Shown here: one piece after another, positions 21,130 through 53,719 of the stretch
Position numbering within the stretch: position 1 is the stretch's first letter
Layout: each line of letters begins with the position of its first letter
Sequence record: MF158044
Source of the DNA: Shigella phage Sf18
Length of the DNA stretch: 64,000 bases
Direction: 5' to 3' (one strand)
Position numbers and translations under genes: made by a program
The notes under the pieces: generated by a model
Database searches by the model: none
Told to the model about the DNA's origin: nothing
What the model saw: only the letters and a program-made list of their open reading frames with translations

Positions 21130-21382
21130 TAGTTATCTGAAGGAGGGTTTTGAACCCTTCTATTCAGAAGAAAGTAGAAAAAATTTTGTAAAAGAGTGCT
21201 TGACTAAGATAGAGCAGTTCGGTAAAGTACTCATCAACAAGGGACATGAAGTAAAGTTTGAACACTTATCAAAAGATAATGTTGAGCAGTTTGCATTAGC
21301 GATTGATGGTTTATCTACAGTTTACATCTTTACCTTGACTAATAAACATTTTGAATATGAAATATATCGGAGAGATTCATGA
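21101..21382 (+). CDS. hypothetical protein
   Basis: 93-aa ORF overlapping primase-helicase 3' end. Confidence 0.3.
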   Translation: MMTVRSKLIDSYLKEGFEPFYSEESRKNFVKECLTKIEQFGKVLINKGHEVKFEHLSKDNVEQFALAIDGLSTVYIFTLTNKHFEYEIYRRDS

Positions 21383-48711: not shown

Positions 48712-49008
48712 ATGTTTATTGCCGCAAACGTTAGAACTAAATTAAGCCAGCTATTAAGTAATATCCAATTCATTGAATCTATGCGCCGTACATCTGAAGC
48801 CGTAGAGTGGTATCATGGAAAGATTAACAAAAAGGAAGTAATAATTTGTGTATGGAACTTTTGTAAAGAATACAAAAAACCATTGCTTCAGGTTGATATC
48901 TATGATAACACTAATAAGTCATCGATTAAGACCACTAGAGATATGGTTGATTCATATGAAATTAGTCACACTGGTAAACTATTCCACAAAGGTAAAAACA
49001 AATGTTAA
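48712..49008 (+). CDS. small hypothetical protein (array gene)
   Basis: 98 aa; cassette leader; stop overlaps next start (ATGTTAA). Confidence 0.5.
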   Translation: MFIAANVRTKLSQLLSNIQFIESMRRTSEAVEWYHGKINKKEVIICVWNFCKEYKKPLLQVDIYDNTNKSSIKTTRDMVDSYEISHTGKLFHKGKNKC

Positions 49009-49349
49009 TCACATACGTTGCAATTTTTATCTCTATTGTGGCGCTCTATAAAGCCTTACAAGCGCACAGTATAGCTAATAAGGCACTTACAAGGGATTTA
49101 AAAATAAACCTTGTACGGGGCTTTCTAGAGCGTTTAAGCTTAGAACAATTGAAACGCTTAGAGATGAGCTTTCGATTCAAAGCAGAAACATACCGGATTG
49201 ATAACATCCTAGACGGGGATTTTAAATTAATCAGTGATTATGACATACTTCTTGAGTCAATTCAAGATATAAACCTGAAAGATTATTATATCGTGATAGC
49301 GCAAGAAATTAATAAAAAAGAGCTTGCAATGCAGAATCAAAACAAGTAA
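49002..49349 (+). CDS. small membrane protein (array gene)
   Basis: 115 aa; N-terminal TM (ITYVAIFISIVALY); last 11 codons (KKELAMQNQNK) lie inside a type-B promoter and are shared with ORF 52598-52738. Confidence 0.45.
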   Translation: MLITYVAIFISIVALYKALQAHSIANKALTRDLKINLVRGFLERLSLEQLKRLEMSFRFKAETYRIDNILDGDFKLISDYDILLESIQDINLKDYYIVIAQEINKKELAMQNQNK

Positions 49350-49352
49350 AGT
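49324..49352 (+). promoter_or_regulatory. type-B promoter overlapping gene 3' end
   Basis: TTGCAA-N17-TAAAGT; the TAA of the -10 hexamer is the stop codon of ORF 49002-49349. Confidence 0.45.
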
Positions 49353-49629
49353 ATTCATCAACGGTACTAATGACGGTCGAACTTTGAACGTAACTTTAAA
49401 ACACTATATAGACGGTGTATTAAACTTTGAAGAGTTAAGAGCAGAACAGCACCTATTAGATTGGCAAGTAGCAGGTTTACAAAAAACCGCCACAGGATAT
49501 GGAAAGAAAATTCCTACATCTTGGAAAGTTCGATACCTTGGAAAGTTACGCAGAATTTATCAAGATGTTTACAGTAATAGCGGCGTAAGTTACATTATTG
49601 TTAGTGGTAAAAAATTGTATTTAGTCTAA
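49324..49629 (+). pseudogene. ORF without canonical start or leader (possible 5'-truncated gene)
   Basis: 101-aa frame open only from TTG at 49324; no in-frame ATG and no CTAAACTGGAG leader; begins inside the type-B promoter; ends at a normal type-A cassette. Confidence 0.25.
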
Positions 49630-49718
49630 TAAATTGCTTTACATGGGGTTATCAAGTTGCTAAGATAGCCCCAGATAAAGAGATTTATCTAAAACTAACC
49701 TAAACTGGAGACTAGAAA
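49630..49718 (+). promoter_or_regulatory. type-A cassette copy 5
   Basis: Hairpin variant GGGGTTATC/GATAGCCCC; leader variant ACCTAAACTGGAGACTAGAAAATG. Confidence 0.5.
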
Positions 49719-50126
49719 ATGACTAATGTTAATCACAAAGAAGTTGCAATTTTGAAAGCACGTTTGACCATTAACCGCATCAACATTGTAACATCAGCAG
49801 CACCAGACGAAACACTACATAATATCATCGGTAAAATTCAGGGCGCAGTAGTAGACACAAAACAGCTTAAAGAATCCTTGCAAGATGTAGCAGCAGGAGC
49901 TATAATTGACGGTGCTCAATATGAGATGAAGGAAATGCTGTCAAAGTCAAAAGTAATGAATAAAGAACTTGACTTGAAAATGTTTAGATTTGCTGTTAAA
50001 GTGTGGCTATGTGTTGATTTTGATGCAAACTTTGCAATTGCTGATTTCTTTGCAACATGGTTACAGCGTAACTTACCGGTTGAAGTTTTCCGTGAAATCT
50101 GCGATGCAATTTATTCAGAAATTTGA
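49719..50126 (+). CDS. hypothetical protein (array gene)
   Basis: 135 aa; cassette leader. Confidence 0.5.
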   Translation: MTNVNHKEVAILKARLTINRINIVTSAAPDETLHNIIGKIQGAVVDTKQLKESLQDVAAGAIIDGAQYEMKEMLSKSKVMNKELDLKMFRFAVKVWLCVDFDANFAIADFFATWLQRNLPVEVFREICDAIYSEI

Positions 50127-50155
50127 TTGACACTGCAAAAGCATAGTAGTAAAGT
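50127..50155 (+). promoter_or_regulatory. type-B early promoter
   Basis: TTGACA-N17-TAAAGT starting on the base after the upstream stop codon; followed by conserved leader. Confidence 0.5.
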
Positions 50156-50198
50156 ACTCATCAGACAACGAAACAACCCTAAACTGGAGATTCAAAAG

Positions 50199-50447
50199 AT
50201 GAAAACAAAAACACAACTCAAAAGTATGATGAAAAATGGTTTTCTCGATGATGTATACAAAGAATGTAGACGGTATGGGGAAATAAAAAGTAATTTCGAT
50301 TTTGAGTACACGTATACAGTGAATTTCAAAACTAACGAACGAAAAACAGACCTTGTAACTGAGATTCAAATAGAATACAAAGATTTATTATGGACTTTTG
50401 AACTTGTAAAAGGTTTATGCACATCGGCAGGTTATAAAAACATCTAA
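50199..50447 (+). CDS. small hypothetical protein (array gene)
   Basis: Start at internal Met (MKTKTQLK) after CTGGAGATTCAAAAG; the track N-terminal extension would translate the promoter. Confidence 0.45.
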   Translation: MKTKTQLKSMMKNGFLDDVYKECRRYGEIKSNFDFEYTYTVNFKTNERKTDLVTEIQIEYKDLLWTFELVKGLCTSAGYKNI

Positions 50448-50532
50448 AAGTGCTTTACATGGGGTTTATAGTTAGATAAGATAAGCCCCAGATAAAGAGC
50501 TTTACCAACAATCCTAAACTGGAGAATCTAAA
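50448..50532 (+). promoter_or_regulatory. type-A cassette copy 6
   Basis: Consensus copy: TAAAAGTGCTTTACATGGGGTTTATAGTTAGATAAGATAAGCCCCAGATAAAGAGCTTTACCAACAATCCTAAACTGGAGAATCTAAAATG. Confidence 0.5.
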
Positions 50533-51384: not shown

Positions 51385-51413
51385 TTGACACTGAAAACGC
51401 AAGAAAGTAAAGT
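51385..51413 (+). promoter_or_regulatory. type-B early promoter
   Basis: TTGACA-N17-TAAAGT immediately after upstream stop; then ATTCATCAACGGGAAACATCCC and leader. Confidence 0.5.
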
Positions 51414-51462
51414 ATTCATCAACGGGAAACATCCCAACAATCCTAAACTGGAGATTCAAAAA

Positions 51463-51684
51463 ATGTTGCAAGTTCTTAACGTAAAAACCATTGATTTTAA
51501 ATTCTCAAATGTTCGTCGTACCTATTTACAGCCGTTTAGTAAACCTGTTAGGATTCCCAACGATGACGCTAAAAAGTTGATTGATGAAATTCTAGCTAAT
51601 GGCGGTTATCTGGCTAGTCATAAGCAGTATAATGATGAGGATGGAAGCCTGATAAATGAGTTTACATATTATTACTACAAATAA
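51463..51684 (+). CDS. small hypothetical protein (array gene)
   Basis: Start at internal Met (MLQVLNVK) after CTGGAGATTCAAAAA. Confidence 0.45.
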   Translation: MLQVLNVKTIDFKFSNVRRTYLQPFSKPVRIPNDDAKKLIDEILANGGYLASHKQYNDEDGSLINEFTYYYYK

Positions 51685-51775
51685 CTAATAAAGTGCTTTA
51701 CATGGGGTTTATAGTTAGCTAAGATAAGCCCCAGATAAAGAGCTTTACCAACAATCCTAAACTGGAGAATCTAGA
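51685..51775 (+). promoter_or_regulatory. type-A cassette copy 7
   Basis: TTTACA-N17-TAAGAT with hairpin; leader CTGGAGAATCTAGAATG. Confidence 0.5.
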
Positions 51776-51973
51776 ATGTTATCACTGATGCAAAAACTTT
51801 CTACCTTGTGGTGTTTAAAAGGTGTAGAGTGTAACCTTAACATGGAAGGTTCAAAGATAGACCTAAAAATAGTATACAATGGAGAAATACTATTCTCACA
51901 GAATAGCAGTCATCCACACTTCAAAGATAATGCAATTATGGCCGTGAATAATCTGATGGATAGAATTTATTAA
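51776..51973 (+). CDS. small hypothetical protein (array gene)
   Basis: 65 aa; cassette leader. Confidence 0.45.
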   Translation: MLSLMQKLSTLWCLKGVECNLNMEGSKIDLKIVYNGEILFSQNSSHPHFKDNAIMAVNNLMDRIY

Positions 51974-52058
51974 AGTGCTTTACATGGGGTTTAAAAGCTA
52001 GTATCTTAAGCCCCAGAGAAAGAGCTTTACCAACAATCCTAAACTGGAGAATCTGAAA
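51974..52058 (+). promoter_or_regulatory. type-A cassette copy 8
   Basis: Hairpin variant GGGGTTTAA/TTAAGCCCC; -10-like TATCTT. Confidence 0.5.
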
Positions 52059-52400: not shown

Positions 52401-52597
52401 TCAACAACTTATAAAAAATCTTTTGAAAAACTATTGACAATGCCCCTTGACAAGTGTAACTTTGTTCGAGGGGGTTTATCTAAAAGGGGTTAACTTAATA
52501 GATTCTTTATAGATAAGCGTAAAAAGTACTTGCAAAGGTCTAATCATATCTATATAGTATCTTCAAAAGGCAACTTCCTAAACTGGAGAATCACTAA
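52401..52597 (+). promoter_or_regulatory. intergenic control region with stacked promoter-like boxes
   Basis: TTGACAATGCCCCTTGACAAG (two -35-like boxes) and TTGCAA-spacer-TATATAGTA, then leader CCTAAACTGGAGAATCACTAAATG. Confidence 0.35.
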
Positions 52598-52738
52598 ATG
52601 TTAGATATCATTAAAAACCCTATCCTTTGCGGTATGATTGTTTCTGTTGTGTTGCCATTAGCAATGCTCATCATTGGTGAAATCTCAGATAAACTTTTTG
52701 ATAAAAAACTACTTGCAATGCAGAATCAAAACAAGTAA
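52598..52738 (+). CDS. small membrane protein (below track cut-off)
   Basis: 46-aa ORF found by eye; TM core (ILCGMIVSVVLPLAMLIIG); conserved leader; C-terminal KKLLAMQNQNK encoded by the type-B promoter sequence. Confidence 0.4.
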   Translation: MLDIIKNPILCGMIVSVVLPLAMLIIGEISDKLFDKKLLAMQNQNK

Positions 52739-52741
52739 AGT
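52713..52741 (+). promoter_or_regulatory. type-B promoter overlapping gene 3' end
   Basis: TTGCAA-N17-TAAAGT; identical over about 45 nt to 49324-49362; followed by hairpin GGGGAGG-GAGA-CCTCCCC and leader. Confidence 0.45.
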
Positions 52742-52802
52742 ATTCATCAACGGGGAGGGAGACCTCCCCACTAAACAAAATTCCTAAACTGGAGAATCTA
52801 GA

Positions 52803-53330
52803 ATGAATAAGTTTAATGCTGTTAATGCAATCCGTAGCCGTGAAGTGATGAGCAAGCCTTGTAAAGATACTTGGGAATTTACCTTAAAGAGCAAAGTTTT
52901 TGCAGTTATCACAAAAGGGGAAGATAAGCAGTTTTATGTACACCGACCAAATGTAAAAGCGGTAACAGCCAACAACTTTATGGGGGCTATTTCTCTTATT
53001 CTGAATGATTATATGGCTATAGTCGCAGAAATTCACGAAATGGCTATTAAGGCAACTAAAAACGAGTTAAACCGCTTTAAAATGGCTTATGAGCGCTCTA
53101 TTAAGTCCCATAATCTTTTTATTGCAATCCACTATACAGGCATGTATGCTATGGGAACGGGTAACCAACAATACCCACTCTATGAAGTGGAAAACATCTT
53201 TACAAGTGACTACCCAACAACTAATTTTAAAATTACGTTAGGGGAAGCATTAAATAGGGGAATTAGGCTTTACGAACAATCTTTAAAAAACTTAGAAAAT
53301 TCCCTTGACGAAATCATCACAAATCTATAA
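52803..53330 (+). CDS. hypothetical protein (array gene)
   Basis: 175 aa; cassette leader. Confidence 0.5.
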   Translation: MNKFNAVNAIRSREVMSKPCKDTWEFTLKSKVFAVITKGEDKQFYVHRPNVKAVTANNFMGAISLILNDYMAIVAEIHEMAIKATKNELNRFKMAYERSIKSHNLFIAIHYTGMYAMGTGNQQYPLYEVENIFTSDYPTTNFKITLGEALNRGIRLYEQSLKNLENSLDEIITNL

Positions 53331-53333: not shown

Positions 53334-53390
53334 ACTTATCAACGGGGAGGGAATGACCTTCCCCAACAATCCTAAACTGGAGACTAGAAA

Positions 53391-53654
53391 ATGAATAATC
53401 AAGAAATCACTATCCTGTTACAAATCGGTACTGACAAAGAAGATATCCAACTTTGCAAACGTATTGAAAGTGATTGGTTCAACGGTGAAATCATCGCAGA
53501 ATCTTATGAAGTAGTCGGATTCATGAATGGTGAAATTGTAAGCCATTTCGGTTTAACTAAATCTGAAGCCGTTGCAAAGTATGACGTTTTATCTTGTGAG
53601 ATTCTTACAAAATACAATGAAAAAAGACTTGCAACTTATGCAGCAATGAATTAA
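53391..53654 (+). CDS. small hypothetical protein (array gene)
   Basis: 87 aa; leader CCTAAACTGGAGACTAGAAAATG. Confidence 0.5.
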   Translation: MNNQEITILLQIGTDKEDIQLCKRIESDWFNGEIIAESYEVVGFMNGEIVSHFGLTKSEAVAKYDVLSCEILTKYNEKRLATYAAMN

Positions 53655-53657
53655 TAT
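53629..53657 (+). promoter_or_regulatory. type-B early promoter
   Basis: TTGCAA-N17-TAATAT, with TAA as the upstream stop; then TTTCAACGGGGAGGGAGACTTCCCC hairpin and leader. Confidence 0.45.
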
Positions 53658-53719
53658 TACTTTCAACGGGGAGGGAGACTTCCCCACTAACCTAAATTCC
53701 TAAACTGGAGAATCTGAAA

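What the first reader, a model, noticed from the sequence alone, without database searches (positions are those of the whole stretch)
49310..49629. Recombination footprint: two unrelated membrane ORFs share the same last 11 codons, encoded by a promoter; one downstream ORF has lost its start
ORF 49002-49349 and ORF 52598-52738 are unrelated small membrane proteins but both end in KK(E/L)LAMQNQNK, because about 45 nt (CTTGCAATGCAGAATCAAAACAAGTAAAGTATTCATCAACGG) are identical at 49324-49362 and 52713-52751. That sequence is a type-B promoter (TTGCAA-N17-TAAAGT) whose TAA doubles as the stop codon. At 52.7 kb it is followed by the usual hairpin and leader; at 49.3 kb the leader is missing and the following frame (49324-49629) has no ATG and no ribosome-binding site. 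This looks like a recent cassette-mediated deletion or fusion that left a headless gene.
Basis: seen in the sequence. Interest (0 to 1): 0.6.

Follow-up and report, generated by a model that had tools for sequence, protein, structure and literature searches.

The report
Phage gene beheaded by 51-bp deletion
In Shigella phage Sf18 a private 51-base deletion removed the ribosome-binding site and start codon of a small accessory gene, and the peptide tail shared by two neighbouring genes arises only because both read into copies of one repeated promoter cassette; this is ordinary phage genome wear, not a new system.

Summary
The window is Shigella phage Sf18 (Mooglevirus, Felix O1-like). A 42-nt block (49323-49364 = 52712-52753) is exactly duplicated. 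It is a repeated early-promoter cassette: A-tract, TTGCAA-N17-TAAAGT, ATTCATCAACGG. Two unrelated small hydrophobic ORFs run into it and stop at the TAA of the -10 box, which gives the shared tail LAMQNQNK. Relatives show the tail is a by-product: it changes with the promoter, is frameshifted, or is absent. The two cassette copies evolve in concert, differing by 0-2 nt within a genome and 3-6 nt between lineages.

ORF 49324-49629 is the homologue of a 90-aa gene (Sf13 gp50, phrog_3436). The other 38 full-length relatives listed are 90 aa, and every one read starts with ATG behind a hairpin plus the leader CCTAAACTGGAGAATCTAAAATG. Sf18 alone lacks exactly 51 nt: hairpin, leader, Shine-Dalgarno, ATG and 2⅔ codons. 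The junction has no microhomology and occurs in no other public sequence searched. GenBank annotates the remnant as Sf18_gp78, starting at the TTG of the -35 hexamer; this is most likely a longest-ORF artefact.

The deletion is recent, because the gene body is intact. It is not a cassette-by-cassette exchange, although such exchanges do occur nearby. The closest analogue is the PeSL cassettes of T4-like phages. Interest is low to moderate.

The parts
49002..49349 (+). Homologue of Sf13 gp51 (115 aa, one N-terminal hydrophobic segment, phrog_4375). Its last 9 codons lie inside the promoter cassette and its stop codon is the TAA of the -10 box.
   Evidence: The PHROG profile covers residues 1-110 only.
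49311..49322 (+). A-rich tract (AATAAAAAAGAG) directly upstream of the -35 hexamer. It encodes the 'KK' of the tail. The second copy has GATAAAAAACTA at 52700-52711.
49323..49364 (+). Promoter block of a 'TTGCAA' type-B cassette: -35 TTGCAA 49324-49329, 17-nt spacer, -10 TAAAGT 49347-49352, conserved ATTCATCAACGG 49353-49364. It is 42/42 identical to 52712-52753. Promoter activity is inferred, not shown.
49364..49365 (+). Deletion junction. Relative to Sf13, 51 nt are missing (GGCAAGATAGAAGTCCCAACAATCCTAAACTGGAGAATCTAAAATGTATAC): the 5' hairpin, the leader, the Shine-Dalgarno GGAG, the ATG and the first 2⅔ codons. There is no microhomology at the junction.
   Evidence: The junction is absent from all public collections searched.
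49366..49629 (+). Intact body (codons 4-90 plus stop) of the gp50 homologue (phrog_3436). It now has no ribosome-binding site and no ATG, so it is probably a null or strongly hypomorphic allele.
49324..49629 (+). The ORF as annotated in GenBank (Sf18_gp78, ATE86352.1, 101 aa, TTG start). The TTG is the first three bases of the -35 hexamer and lies 23 nt inside the upstream gene. This is most likely a longest-ORF annotation artefact.
   Evidence: The same artefact occurs at window 51385 and at Sf13 gp45.
52598..52738 (+). Homologue of Sf13 gp42 (46 aa, predicted membrane protein, phrog_7482). It reads into the second cassette copy and stops at the TAA of its -10 box.
52712..52753 (+). Second copy of the 42-nt promoter block (-35 at 52713-52718, -10 at 52736-52741).
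52752..52769 (+). 7-bp G/C hairpin (GGGGAGG-GAGA-CCTCCCC) of the intact cassette. It probably lies at the 5' end of the transcript. The corresponding hairpin is deleted at 49.3 kb.
   Evidence: -19 kcal/mol for the 60-nt leader, z = -2.6
52782..52805 (+). Conserved leader TCCTAAACTGGAGAATCTAGA with Shine-Dalgarno GGAG (52791-52794) and the ATG (52803) of the next gene (52803-53330, Sf13 gp41 homologue).

Best explanation
The window is the early 'small-gene' region of Shigella phage Sf18 (Mooglevirus, Ounavirinae). In this region nearly every gene is preceded by a roughly 100-bp regulatory cassette with four parts: an A-rich tract, a sigma-70-like promoter, a G/C stem-loop and a fixed leader (CCTAAACTGGAGA...ATG).

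Two copies of one cassette subtype (TTGCAA-N17-TAAAGT-ATTCATCAACGG) sit 3.4 kb apart. They are kept nearly identical within each genome, most simply by gene conversion.

In Moogleviruses the two unrelated upstream ORFs (the gp51 and gp42 homologues) lack an earlier stop codon. They read into the cassette in the same frame and terminate at the TAA of the -10 box. They therefore share the tail (E/L)LAMQNQNK as a by-product with no protein-level meaning.

Separately, in the Sf18 lineage only, a 51-bp non-homologous deletion removed part of the cassette upstream of the 90-aa accessory gene gp50 (phrog_3436). It started 2 nt into the 5' stem of that cassette's hairpin, just past the promoter block. 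It removed the hairpin, leader, Shine-Dalgarno sequence, ATG and first 2⅔ codons. The promoter now abuts codon 4.

The remaining ORF has no usable initiation site. It is most likely untranslated, or translated only at trace level. The phage is viable, so the gene is dispensable under the isolation conditions. The GenBank start (the TTG of the -35 hexamer) is an artefact of extending the ORF to the first possible start codon.

Shown: the repeat, the deletion, its uniqueness, the missing ribosome-binding site, the intact gene body and the co-variation of the cassettes. Inferred: promoter activity, loss of translation, gene conversion as the homogenising process, and how the deletion arose.
For: Identity of the window: the 101-aa ORF is 100% identical to Sf18_gp78 (ATE86352.1), a singleton cluster. 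The closest genome in the phage collection is Sf13, at 98.6%.

The deletion:
- BLAST and MAFFT place a single 51-nt gap at 49364|49365 relative to Sf13. The gap is 57-58 nt relative to Mordin, Moogle and CHB7 (alignments).
- All nine relatives aligned carry the leader and ATG.
- The junction 26-mer is absent from IMG/VR, JGI metagenomes and GTDB genomes. No phage record matches the junction region at 95% identity or better.

Family start: the other 38 full-length relatives listed are 90 aa, and every one read starts MY(T/A)TN or MFATN. Sf13 gp50 matches positions 1-90 of the PHROG profile.

No initiation site: candidate starts pair with the anti-Shine-Dalgarno sequence at -2.5 kcal/mol or weaker, against -6.4 at most real genes. 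The remnant contains no methionine codon.

Recent event: the remnant differs from both Sf13 and Sf17 at 4 of 264 nt, 3 of them synonymous, with no frameshift or stop.

The tail is a by-product:
- CHB7 and ESh21 stop before the -35.
- KMM2 (A5 instead of A6) and Sf17 (a 30-nt deletion) read on to 124 aa.
- The tail is AIKNQNK in Mordin, following its promoter sequence.

Concerted evolution: the two copies differ by 0, 0, 2, 1 and 0 nt within five genomes. Orthologous copies differ by 3-6 nt between the Sf13, Mordin and CHB7 lineages.

Internal control: this is the only one of 13 cassette promoters in 46.8-53.7 kb without a leader.

Annotation habit: Sf13 gp45 and window ORF 51385-51684 are likewise started at the TTG of a -35 hexamer, although a leader and ATG follow.
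Against: No expression data exist, so promoter activity and loss of translation are inferred from sequence alone.

The TTGCAA/TAAAGT pair matches the sigma-70 consensus at only 8 of 12 positions and fell below the threshold of the simple promoter scan.

Low-level initiation at TTG 49324 or TTG 49384 cannot be excluded. Termination-reinitiation after the upstream stop codon also cannot be excluded. The conserved core of the family starts only around residue 25-34, so an N-terminally truncated protein might still work.

The intact gene body is equally compatible with continued function.

The deletion rests on one deposited genome. The raw reads could not be inspected.
Confidence: 0.72

Rival explanations
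1. The gene is still expressed, at a reduced level or in altered form. One route is initiation at TTG 49384, which gives an 81-aa protein lacking the first 9 of the 90 residues. The other is termination-reinitiation by ribosomes that finish the upstream ORF at TAA 49347-49349. On this reading the deletion is a down-regulating rather than an inactivating mutation.
For: The conserved core of the family begins at about residue 25-34, and distant members have unrelated or shorter N-termini. The gene body shows no decay. TTG 49384 lies 35 nt downstream of the upstream stop codon, and TTG 49324 lies 23 nt upstream of it.
Against: Both TTGs have very weak anti-Shine-Dalgarno pairing (-2.1 and -2.5 kcal/mol) with poor spacing. 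In the structure model residues 9-31 form a confident beta-hairpin that belongs to the fold in this clade, so a truncation at residue 10 would clip it. Lack of decay is expected anyway for a recent event.
Confidence: 0.12
2. The GenBank annotation is right. TTG 49324 is a genuine start codon, and Sf18 makes a 101-aa protein with a new N-terminus (MQCRIKTSKVFING...) encoded by the promoter.
For: The frame is open from 49300, and TTG is a legal bacterial start codon. The depositors chose it.
Against: The only purine-rich stretch (AAGAG) ends 1 nt before the TTG, so the spacing is far too short, and it pairs at only -2.1 kcal/mol. The TTG lies inside the upstream gene and is also the -35 hexamer. 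A transcript made from this promoter would therefore not contain it. No other listed relative uses such a start. The same 'TTG in the -35' call is made for other genes that clearly have a leader and ATG.
Confidence: 0.04
3. One reading: the deletion arose by homologous, PeSL-type exchange between two repeated cassettes.
For: Cassette-to-cassette whole-gene indels and a gene replacement do occur in this region between relatives. The left end of the deletion (49364) lies at the 3' edge of the conserved promoter block. That is within 2 nt of where homology between the two TTGCAA cassettes ends in Sf13. Three other events place a breakpoint in the same few bases: the right end of the Sf17 deletion, the left breakpoint of the replacement at 50163, and the switch between Sf13-type and Mordin-type hairpins.
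Against: The right end lies in unique coding sequence (codon 3 of gp50), with no repeat and no microhomology. An exchange between the 49.3-kb and 52.7-kb copies would delete 3.4 kb, not 51 nt. At most the event is anchored by homology or by the hairpin on one side and is illegitimate on the other.
Confidence: 0.06
4. The 51-nt gap is a sequencing or assembly artefact of the Sf18 record, caused by the highly repeated leader and hairpin.
For: The missing piece consists of a hairpin plus a leader that recurs 15 times in 7 kb. The junction is seen in only one record.
Against: Graph mis-assembly joins sequences through shared k-mers, but the two sides of this junction share no bases, so reads spanning it must exist (inference). 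The deletion is clean and flanked by perfectly matching sequence. A sister phage, Sf17, carries a different clean deletion in the same cassette, so small real deletions do occur here.
Confidence: 0.06
5. A programmed +1 ribosomal frameshift on AAA-AAA-G (49314-49320) fuses the upstream membrane protein to the gp50 body.
For: The gp50 frame is +1 relative to the upstream ORF and is open from 49300. AAA to AAG re-pairing by tRNA-Lys is chemically possible. In KMM2 a 1-nt loss in this A-run does put the upstream ORF into that frame.
Against: There is no slow or stop codon in the A-site and no stimulatory element. The A6 run is also present in relatives, where the +1 frame is closed by the leader's TAA. 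No fusion-length relative was listed.
Confidence: 0.02

Closest known systems
PeSL (promoter-early stem-loop) cassettes of T4-like phages (Arbiol et al. 2010, PMC2839356; Comeau et al. 2014, PMC4122927)
   Same: Both are repeated intergenic cassettes of about 100 bp. Both have an AT-rich tract around the upstream stop codon, a sigma-70-like -35/-10, a G-tract/C-tract stem-loop, and a Shine-Dalgarno sequence plus start codon at the 3' end. The stem-loop lies either between -35 and -10 (type A here) or just downstream of -10 (type B here); both positions are described for PeSLs. Both are concentrated upstream of small genes of unknown function in a plastic region. Both are associated with whole-gene insertions, deletions and replacements between close relatives (here; for PeSLs).
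   Different: The phage lineage differs (Ounavirinae, not T4-like) and the cassette sequences are unrelated. Promoter and terminator activities have not been tested here. The type-B hairpin has no U-tract and was not called as a terminator. No mini-circles have been shown. The specific event in this finding, a 51-nt deletion inside one cassette-gene junction, is not the PeSL-by-PeSL exchange those papers describe.
Direct repeats annotated in Felix O1 and wV8 genomes (Whichard et al. 2010, PMC3185647; GenBank EU877232 features DR_1 to DR_9; 'repeat_region' features in Citrobacter phage Mordin)
   Same: These are the same elements. The 57-bp Felix O1 repeat CTTTACATGGGG...CCCCAGATAAAGAGCTTTACC is the type-A cassette. 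The 39-bp repeat TTGACACTGG...ATTACACATCAAC is the type-B promoter block.
   Different: Those sources list them only as direct repeats. In what I could read, they are not interpreted as promoters, as recombination substrates or as the source of shared ORF tails. The Sf18 deletion is not mentioned.
Sf13 gp50, Sf17 gp128 and Mordin gp119 (phrog_3436), the intact orthologues
   Same: Residues 4-90 are 98-99% identical to Sf13 gp50 and Sf17 gp128 (96% to Mordin gp119), at the same genomic position between the gp51 and gp49 homologues.
   Different: The orthologues have the hairpin, leader, GGAG and ATG. Sf18 does not. Sf17 instead lacks 30 nt of the promoter (spacer plus -10) in front of the same gene.

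Membership tests
PeSL-type mobile regulatory cassette | Sigma-70-like -35 and -10 hexamers with about 17-nt spacing | tested here: met
   TTGCAA-N17-TAAAGT at 49324-49352 and 52713-41. Sister copies have TTGACA-N17-TAAAGT. This is a sequence match only (8-10 of 12 positions); activity was not tested.
PeSL-type mobile regulatory cassette | [quoted passage not shown] | tested here: met
   AATAAAAAAGAG and GATAAAAAACTA lie before the -35. In CHB7 and ESh21 the upstream stop codon lies in this tract. In Sf18 it has moved into the -10 box.
PeSL-type mobile regulatory cassette | Stable G-tract/C-tract stem-loop within or next to the promoter | tested here: met
   Present at 52752-52769 (7 bp; -19 kcal/mol for the leader) and in type-A cassettes (z = -4.6). 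At 49.3 kb it has been deleted, so that copy is a truncated cassette.
PeSL-type mobile regulatory cassette | Shine-Dalgarno sequence and start codon of the downstream gene at the 3' end | tested here: met
   Met for 12 of the 13 promoter cassettes in 46.8-53.7 kb. Not met for the copy at 49324, which is the lesion under study.
PeSL-type mobile regulatory cassette | Stem-loop acts as a transcription terminator or attenuator, and the promoter is strong in vivo | not testable with these tools
   The consensus scan called no intrinsic terminator at these hairpins, which lack a U-tract. Reporter assays are needed.
PeSL-type mobile regulatory cassette | Cassettes flank gene insertions, deletions and replacements between close relatives | tested here: met
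   Whole-gene gaps bounded by cassettes versus Moogle (50179-50504, 51428-52029, 52559-52776) and CHB7 (53354-53677). An unrelated 82-aa gene occupies the gp48 slot, with breakpoints at cassette edges.
PeSL-type mobile regulatory cassette | Excised cassette-gene mini-circles | not testable with these tools
   Requires outward-facing PCR on phage or infected-cell DNA.
PeSL-type mobile regulatory cassette | Occurrence in the hyperplastic regions of T4-like myoviruses (the family as described) | tested here: not met
   The window is a Mooglevirus of the Ounavirinae. I therefore file it as 'works like a PeSL', an analogous cassette family, and not as a member of the described T4-type set.
phrog_3436 (Sf13 gp50-like 90-aa protein) | Full-length match to the 90-position profile, including the N-terminal Met-Tyr-Thr | tested here: not met
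   Sf13 gp50 matches profile positions 1-90. The window retains residues 4-90 only and has no ATG. It is a 5'-truncated allele of the family gene.
Programmed frameshift or non-canonical start gene | Conservation of the unusual start or shift site in homologues | tested here: not met
   The other 38 full-length relatives listed are 90 aa, and every one read has a canonical ATG start. The TTG-start form is a singleton.

The most novel reading that the evidence does not exclude
The promoter/5'-hairpin boundary of the Ounavirinae early cassettes may be a genuine recombination or deletion hot spot. Expression of the phrog_3436 gene has been hit twice independently in Shigella-infecting Moogleviruses. 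At least the Sf13 and Sf17 records name the Red Cedar River as their source. Sf17 lost the spacer and -10 of the gene's promoter, and Sf18 lost its hairpin, ribosome-binding site and ATG. Two independent hits would imply selection against this gene on Shigella, for example because its product is toxic or triggers a host defence. It would also make these cassettes an independently evolved PeSL-like system that both shuffles and silences accessory genes.
Probability: 0.1. Interest if true: 0.55.

Novelty: new member of a known kind. Interest (0 to 1): 0.27.

Why it matters
This matters mainly for annotation and housekeeping. Sf18_gp78 is almost certainly a beheaded allele, not a 101-aa protein. 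Several neighbouring 'TTG-start' genes in Mooglevirus records appear to be over-extended into their own promoters.

More broadly, the locus is a compact example of three things. Repeated promoter/stem-loop/leader cassettes in Felix O1-like phages behave like the PeSLs of T4-like phages: they are homogenised within genomes and flank gene gain, loss and replacement. Reading into such a cassette gives unrelated proteins identical tails with no functional meaning. Small deletions cluster at the cassette's promoter/hairpin boundary.

The finding also shows that the widespread but uncharacterised phrog_3436 gene is dispensable for plaque formation on the isolation host.

Tried and rejected
- Rfam scan of 46.5-54.5 kb: no known RNA family.
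- Exact-junction searches in IMG/VR, JGI metagenomes and GTDB genomes: no hits.
- The look-up of encoding contigs for Sf18_gp78: not on record.
- Doore et al. 2018 (PMC5874400), the presumed source paper for the Sf-series phages: not held, so the sequencing method and any comment on this locus could not be checked.
- Literature searches for promoters or stem-loops in Felix O1-like phages found only the repeat lists in the Felix O1 genome paper.
- Microhomology or direct repeats at the deletion ends: none found.
- In-frame fusion of the two ORFs: rejected, because they are in different frames.
- A -1 frameshift on A AAA AAG: rejected, because the heptamer is in the wrong frame.
Full report
**What the window is**

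The region around the finding is 98.6% identical to Shigella phage Sf13 and related Moogleviruses (Ounavirinae, Felix O1-like). The 101-aa ORF 49324-49629 is 100% identical over its full length to GenBank protein ATE86352.1, 'hypothetical protein Sf18_gp78 [Shigella phage Sf18]'. That protein is a singleton cluster from a 90,270-bp genome. The window is therefore Shigella phage Sf18, and the 'headless' frame is already annotated there as a gene starting at TTG 49324.

**Checking the observation**

- ORF 49002-49349 (115 aa) and ORF 52598-52738 (46 aa) end in NKKELAMQNQNK and DKKLLAMQNQNK.
- BLASTP finds no similarity outside these 12 residues.
- Each ORF has one strongly hydrophobic 19-residue segment. 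Sf13's depositors also call the gp42 homologue a membrane protein.
- The exact DNA identity is 42 nt, 49323-49364 = 52712-52753.
- The block contains TTGCAA (49324-29), 17 nt, TAAAGT (49347-52) and ATTCATCAACGG. TAA 49347-49 is the stop codon of the upstream ORF, and the geometry is the same at 52.7 kb.
- At 52.7 kb the block is followed by a 7-bp G/C hairpin (52752-52769) and the leader CCTAAACTGGAGAATCTAGAATG. At 49.3 kb it runs straight into TACTAATGACGG...
- The downstream frame has no ATG or GTG. Its two TTG codons (49324, 49384) pair with the anti-Shine-Dalgarno sequence at only -2.1 and -2.5 kcal/mol, and the first has zero spacing.
- Twelve of the 15 valid ATG reference starts score -6.4 kcal/mol with GGAG at 7-8 nt; the other three score -3.9 to -5.9.
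- A census of 46.8-53.7 kb finds 8 'type-A' promoters, 5 'type-B' promoters and 15 leaders. The promoter at 49324 is the only one not followed by a leader.

**What the headless ORF is**

In Sf13 the same slot holds gp50, a 273-nt (90-aa) gene. It starts at an ATG behind GGGGCAAGATAGAAGTCCC (a hairpin) and CAACAATCCTAAACTGGAGAATCTAAAATG. Alignments with Sf13, Henu11, KMM2, Sf17, Mordin, Michonne, Moogle, SUSP1, ESh21 and CHB7 all agree. Sf18 lacks one contiguous piece between ...ATCAACGG and TACTAATGACGG... It is 51 nt relative to Sf13-type genomes and 57-58 nt relative to genomes with the longer hairpin/leader type.

The missing piece is GGCAAGATAGAAGTCCCAACAATCCTAAACTGGAGAATCTAAAATGTATAC. It holds all but the first two bases of the hairpin, the leader, the Shine-Dalgarno sequence, the ATG and 2⅔ codons. 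The gap can be placed in only one way, and the flanks share no bases, so there is no microhomology.

The family is phrog_3436, and Sf13 gp50 matches its profile at positions 1-90. The homology search listed 47 relatives. The other 38 full-length ones are all 90 aa, and every one whose sequence I read starts MY(T/A)TN or MFATN. Only Sf18_gp78 has the promoter-encoded N-terminus.

The junction 26-mer is absent from IMG/VR, JGI metagenomes and one-genome-per-species GTDB contigs. No record in the phage collection matches the junction region at 95% identity or better.

The gene body is intact. It differs from both Sf13 and Sf17 at 4 of 264 nt, 3 of them synonymous. The deletion is therefore recent.

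**Can the remnant be translated?**

A transcript from the retained promoter would start a few bases after TAAAGT, near 49359 (inference from sigma-70 geometry). It would then carry no Shine-Dalgarno sequence and no 5'-terminal AUG. Its first AUG (49370) is out of frame and opens a 5-codon ORF.

TTG 49324 is the -35 hexamer itself. It lies inside the upstream gene and has only an AAGAG stretch ending 1 nt before it.

I conclude that the remnant is most likely a null or strongly hypomorphic allele. The GenBank start is most likely a longest-ORF artefact. The same habit is visible at window ORF 51385-51684 and at Sf13 gp45. Both are called from the TTG of a -35 TTGACA, although a leader and ATG (window 51463) follow.

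A reservation applies. The conserved core of the family begins around residue 25-34. Weak initiation at TTG 49384, or reinitiation after the upstream stop codon, could therefore give some functional protein. I rate this at about 0.12.

**Why two unrelated ORFs share a tail**

The 42-nt block is one subtype (TTGCAA) of the type-B cassette. Relatives show that the tail is not a protein feature:

- In CHB7 both upstream ORFs stop before the -35, and in ESh21 the gp51 homologue does.
- In Mordin the tail follows the local promoter sequence: the gp51 homologue ends ...ELAIKNQNK and the gp42-site copy carries the same ATAAAG spacer.
- In KMM2 an A5 run in place of A6 shifts the gp51 homologue into the open frame, giving 124 aa.
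- In Sf17 a 30-nt deletion also extends it to 124 aa.
- The PHROG profile for gp51 ends at residue 110 of 115.

The shared tail therefore arises because both ORFs lack an earlier stop codon and enter the cassette in the one frame (of three) that is closed by the TAA of the -10 box.

**Recombination footprint**

The two TTGCAA copies co-vary. They differ by 0, 0, 2, 1 and 0 nt within Sf18, Sf13, KMM2, Mordin and CHB7. Orthologous copies differ by 3-6 nt between the Sf13, Mordin and CHB7 lineages, and the lineage-specific spacer variants (TGCAGA, TAAAGA, AGGCAA) are present in both copies.

This is concerted evolution, most simply explained by gene conversion between copies 3.4 kb apart. In that sense 'recombination footprint' is correct.

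The cassettes are also mosaic. In the Sf13 clade the gp50 cassette combines the TTGCAA promoter with a GGGGCAAGATAGAAGYCCC hairpin. In Mordin that hairpin type sits in front of a different gene.

Cassette-bounded rearrangements are common nearby:

- Whole-gene gaps versus Moogle (50179-50504, 51428-52029, 52559-52776) and CHB7 (53354-53677).
- An 82-aa gene at 50199-50447 with no similarity to the 82-aa Sf13 gp48 in the same slot. Its nearest DNA relatives are Felixounavirus coliphages such as wV8, at about 74%.
- The left breakpoint of that replacement lies directly after TAAAGTACTCATCA.

**How the deletion arose**

It is not a cassette-by-cassette exchange. The right end is in unique coding sequence, there is no microhomology, and an exchange between the two copies would remove 3.4 kb.

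The left end (49364) does sit at the 3' edge of the conserved promoter block, 2 nt into the hairpin stem. Three other events have a breakpoint within a few bases of the same relative position. These are the right end of the Sf17 deletion (...ATGC|GGGGCAAG), the 50163 replacement breakpoint and the promoter/hairpin module switch.

The most economical reading is an illegitimate deletion favoured by the hairpin or by one-sided homology at the module boundary. This step is inference.

An assembly artefact is unlikely, because a junction without any shared k-mer cannot be produced by graph traversal. It could not be excluded without the reads (about 0.06).

**Comparison with what is known**

The cassettes match the published description of PeSLs in T4-like phages. 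That description lists an AT-rich tract with the upstream stop codon, a sigma-70-like promoter and a G/C stem-loop. The stem-loop lies between the boxes or just downstream of the -10. A Shine-Dalgarno sequence plus start codon sits at the 3' end. The elements are about 100 bp, lie upstream of ORFans in plastic regions, and are associated with insertions, deletions and replacements.

They differ in three ways. The phage lineage and the sequences are different. Promoter and terminator activities are untested. No mini-circles have been shown.

In Felix O1 and wV8 the same elements are recorded only as direct repeats, and in the Mordin record as 'repeat_region'. A full-text search for PeSL returned only four papers, none about Felix O1-like phages.

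**Function of the lost gene**

The function is unknown:

- No Pfam match.
- 1005 related clusters at E ≤ 1e-3, all small proteins, with no consistent partner domain.
- No sequence hit in the PDB.

**Verdict**

The mechanism label 'cassette-mediated' is not supported for this particular lesion. The finding is a private, recent loss of the translation-initiation region in one accessory gene of one phage isolate. It is set in a PeSL-like cassette landscape that explains the shared ORF tails.

It is useful for correcting annotation and as an example of cassette dynamics outside the T4-like phages, but it is not a new kind of system. Interest is about 0.27.

The most novel reading still open is that two independent lesions silence the same gene in Sf17 and Sf18, reflecting selection on Shigella hosts and a true hot spot at the promoter/hairpin boundary. 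I give this about 0.1.

Noticed in passing
window 50164-50447 (gene ATG 50199, 82 aa): This slot holds a gene with no detectable similarity to the 82-aa gp48 of Sf13. All close Moogleviruses lose homology at window 50163. The nearest DNA relatives are Felixounavirus coliphages (wV8 gene 23, SP22) at about 74%. The breakpoints lie right after the type-B promoter (TAAAGTACTCATCA) and around the gene's stop codon (homology resumes at 50447), just upstream of the next type-A cassette. This is a cassette-bounded gene replacement.
   Followed up: partly
window 50179-50504, 51428-52029, 52559-52776 (versus Moogle); 53354-53677 (versus CHB7): Whole genes are present in Sf18 but absent in relatives, with gap ends in leaders or hairpins of flanking cassettes. 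This is the pattern described for PeSL-mediated shuffling.
   Followed up: partly
L004 (Shigella phage Sf17) 640-650, equivalent to window 49335-49362: Sf17 carries a different clean 30-nt deletion in the same cassette (AGAATC...ATCAAC). It removes the spacer and -10 box of the promoter in front of the same gene and extends the upstream ORF to 124 aa. This is a second independent lesion affecting the expression signals of the phrog_3436 gene.
   Followed up: partly
window 51385-51684 (and L001 7249-7548, Sf13 gp45; window 50127-50447): These ORFs are listed or annotated from the TTG of a -35 TTGACA hexamer and read through the promoter and leader. A canonical GGAG plus ATG (window 51463, 50199) follows in frame. 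GenBank starts for these genes are probably about 25 codons too long.
   Followed up: partly
window 49630-49721 and seven other type-A cassettes (47213, 47683, 48031, 48633, 50453, 51696, 51978): The type-A cassette places a 9-10-bp GGGG...CCCC hairpin between TTTACA and TAAGAT. This is the commonest PeSL arrangement. The fold is very stable (-25 kcal/mol, z = -4.6). It corresponds to the 57-bp direct repeat reported for Felix O1.
   Followed up: partly
L016 (Citrobacter phage BSwM KMM2) about 440-450: An A5 run in place of A6 before the -35 shifts the gp51 homologue into the frame that is open through the promoter, giving 124 aa. This shows how labile the C-terminal tail is.
   Followed up: yes
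proteins P0194 (664 aa), P0068 (778 aa): The conserved core of the phrog_3436 family occurs at the C-terminus of a 664-aa protein that also has a 2'-5' RNA ligase (LigT-like) domain. Another long protein gave 13 matched stretches. These are possible functional hints.
   Followed up: no
proteins P0041-P0044: Several otherwise close relatives of the 90-aa gene, some of them on phage contigs of 86-88 kb, are truncated. Three of them diverge after the GGAAAGAAAATTCC region. They are either real pseudogenes or homopolymer sequencing errors.
   Followed up: no
window 21200-21240: A lone type-B-like promoter (TTGACT-N17-TAAAGTACTCATCAACAA) lies far outside the 46.8-53.7 kb cassette cluster.
   Followed up: no
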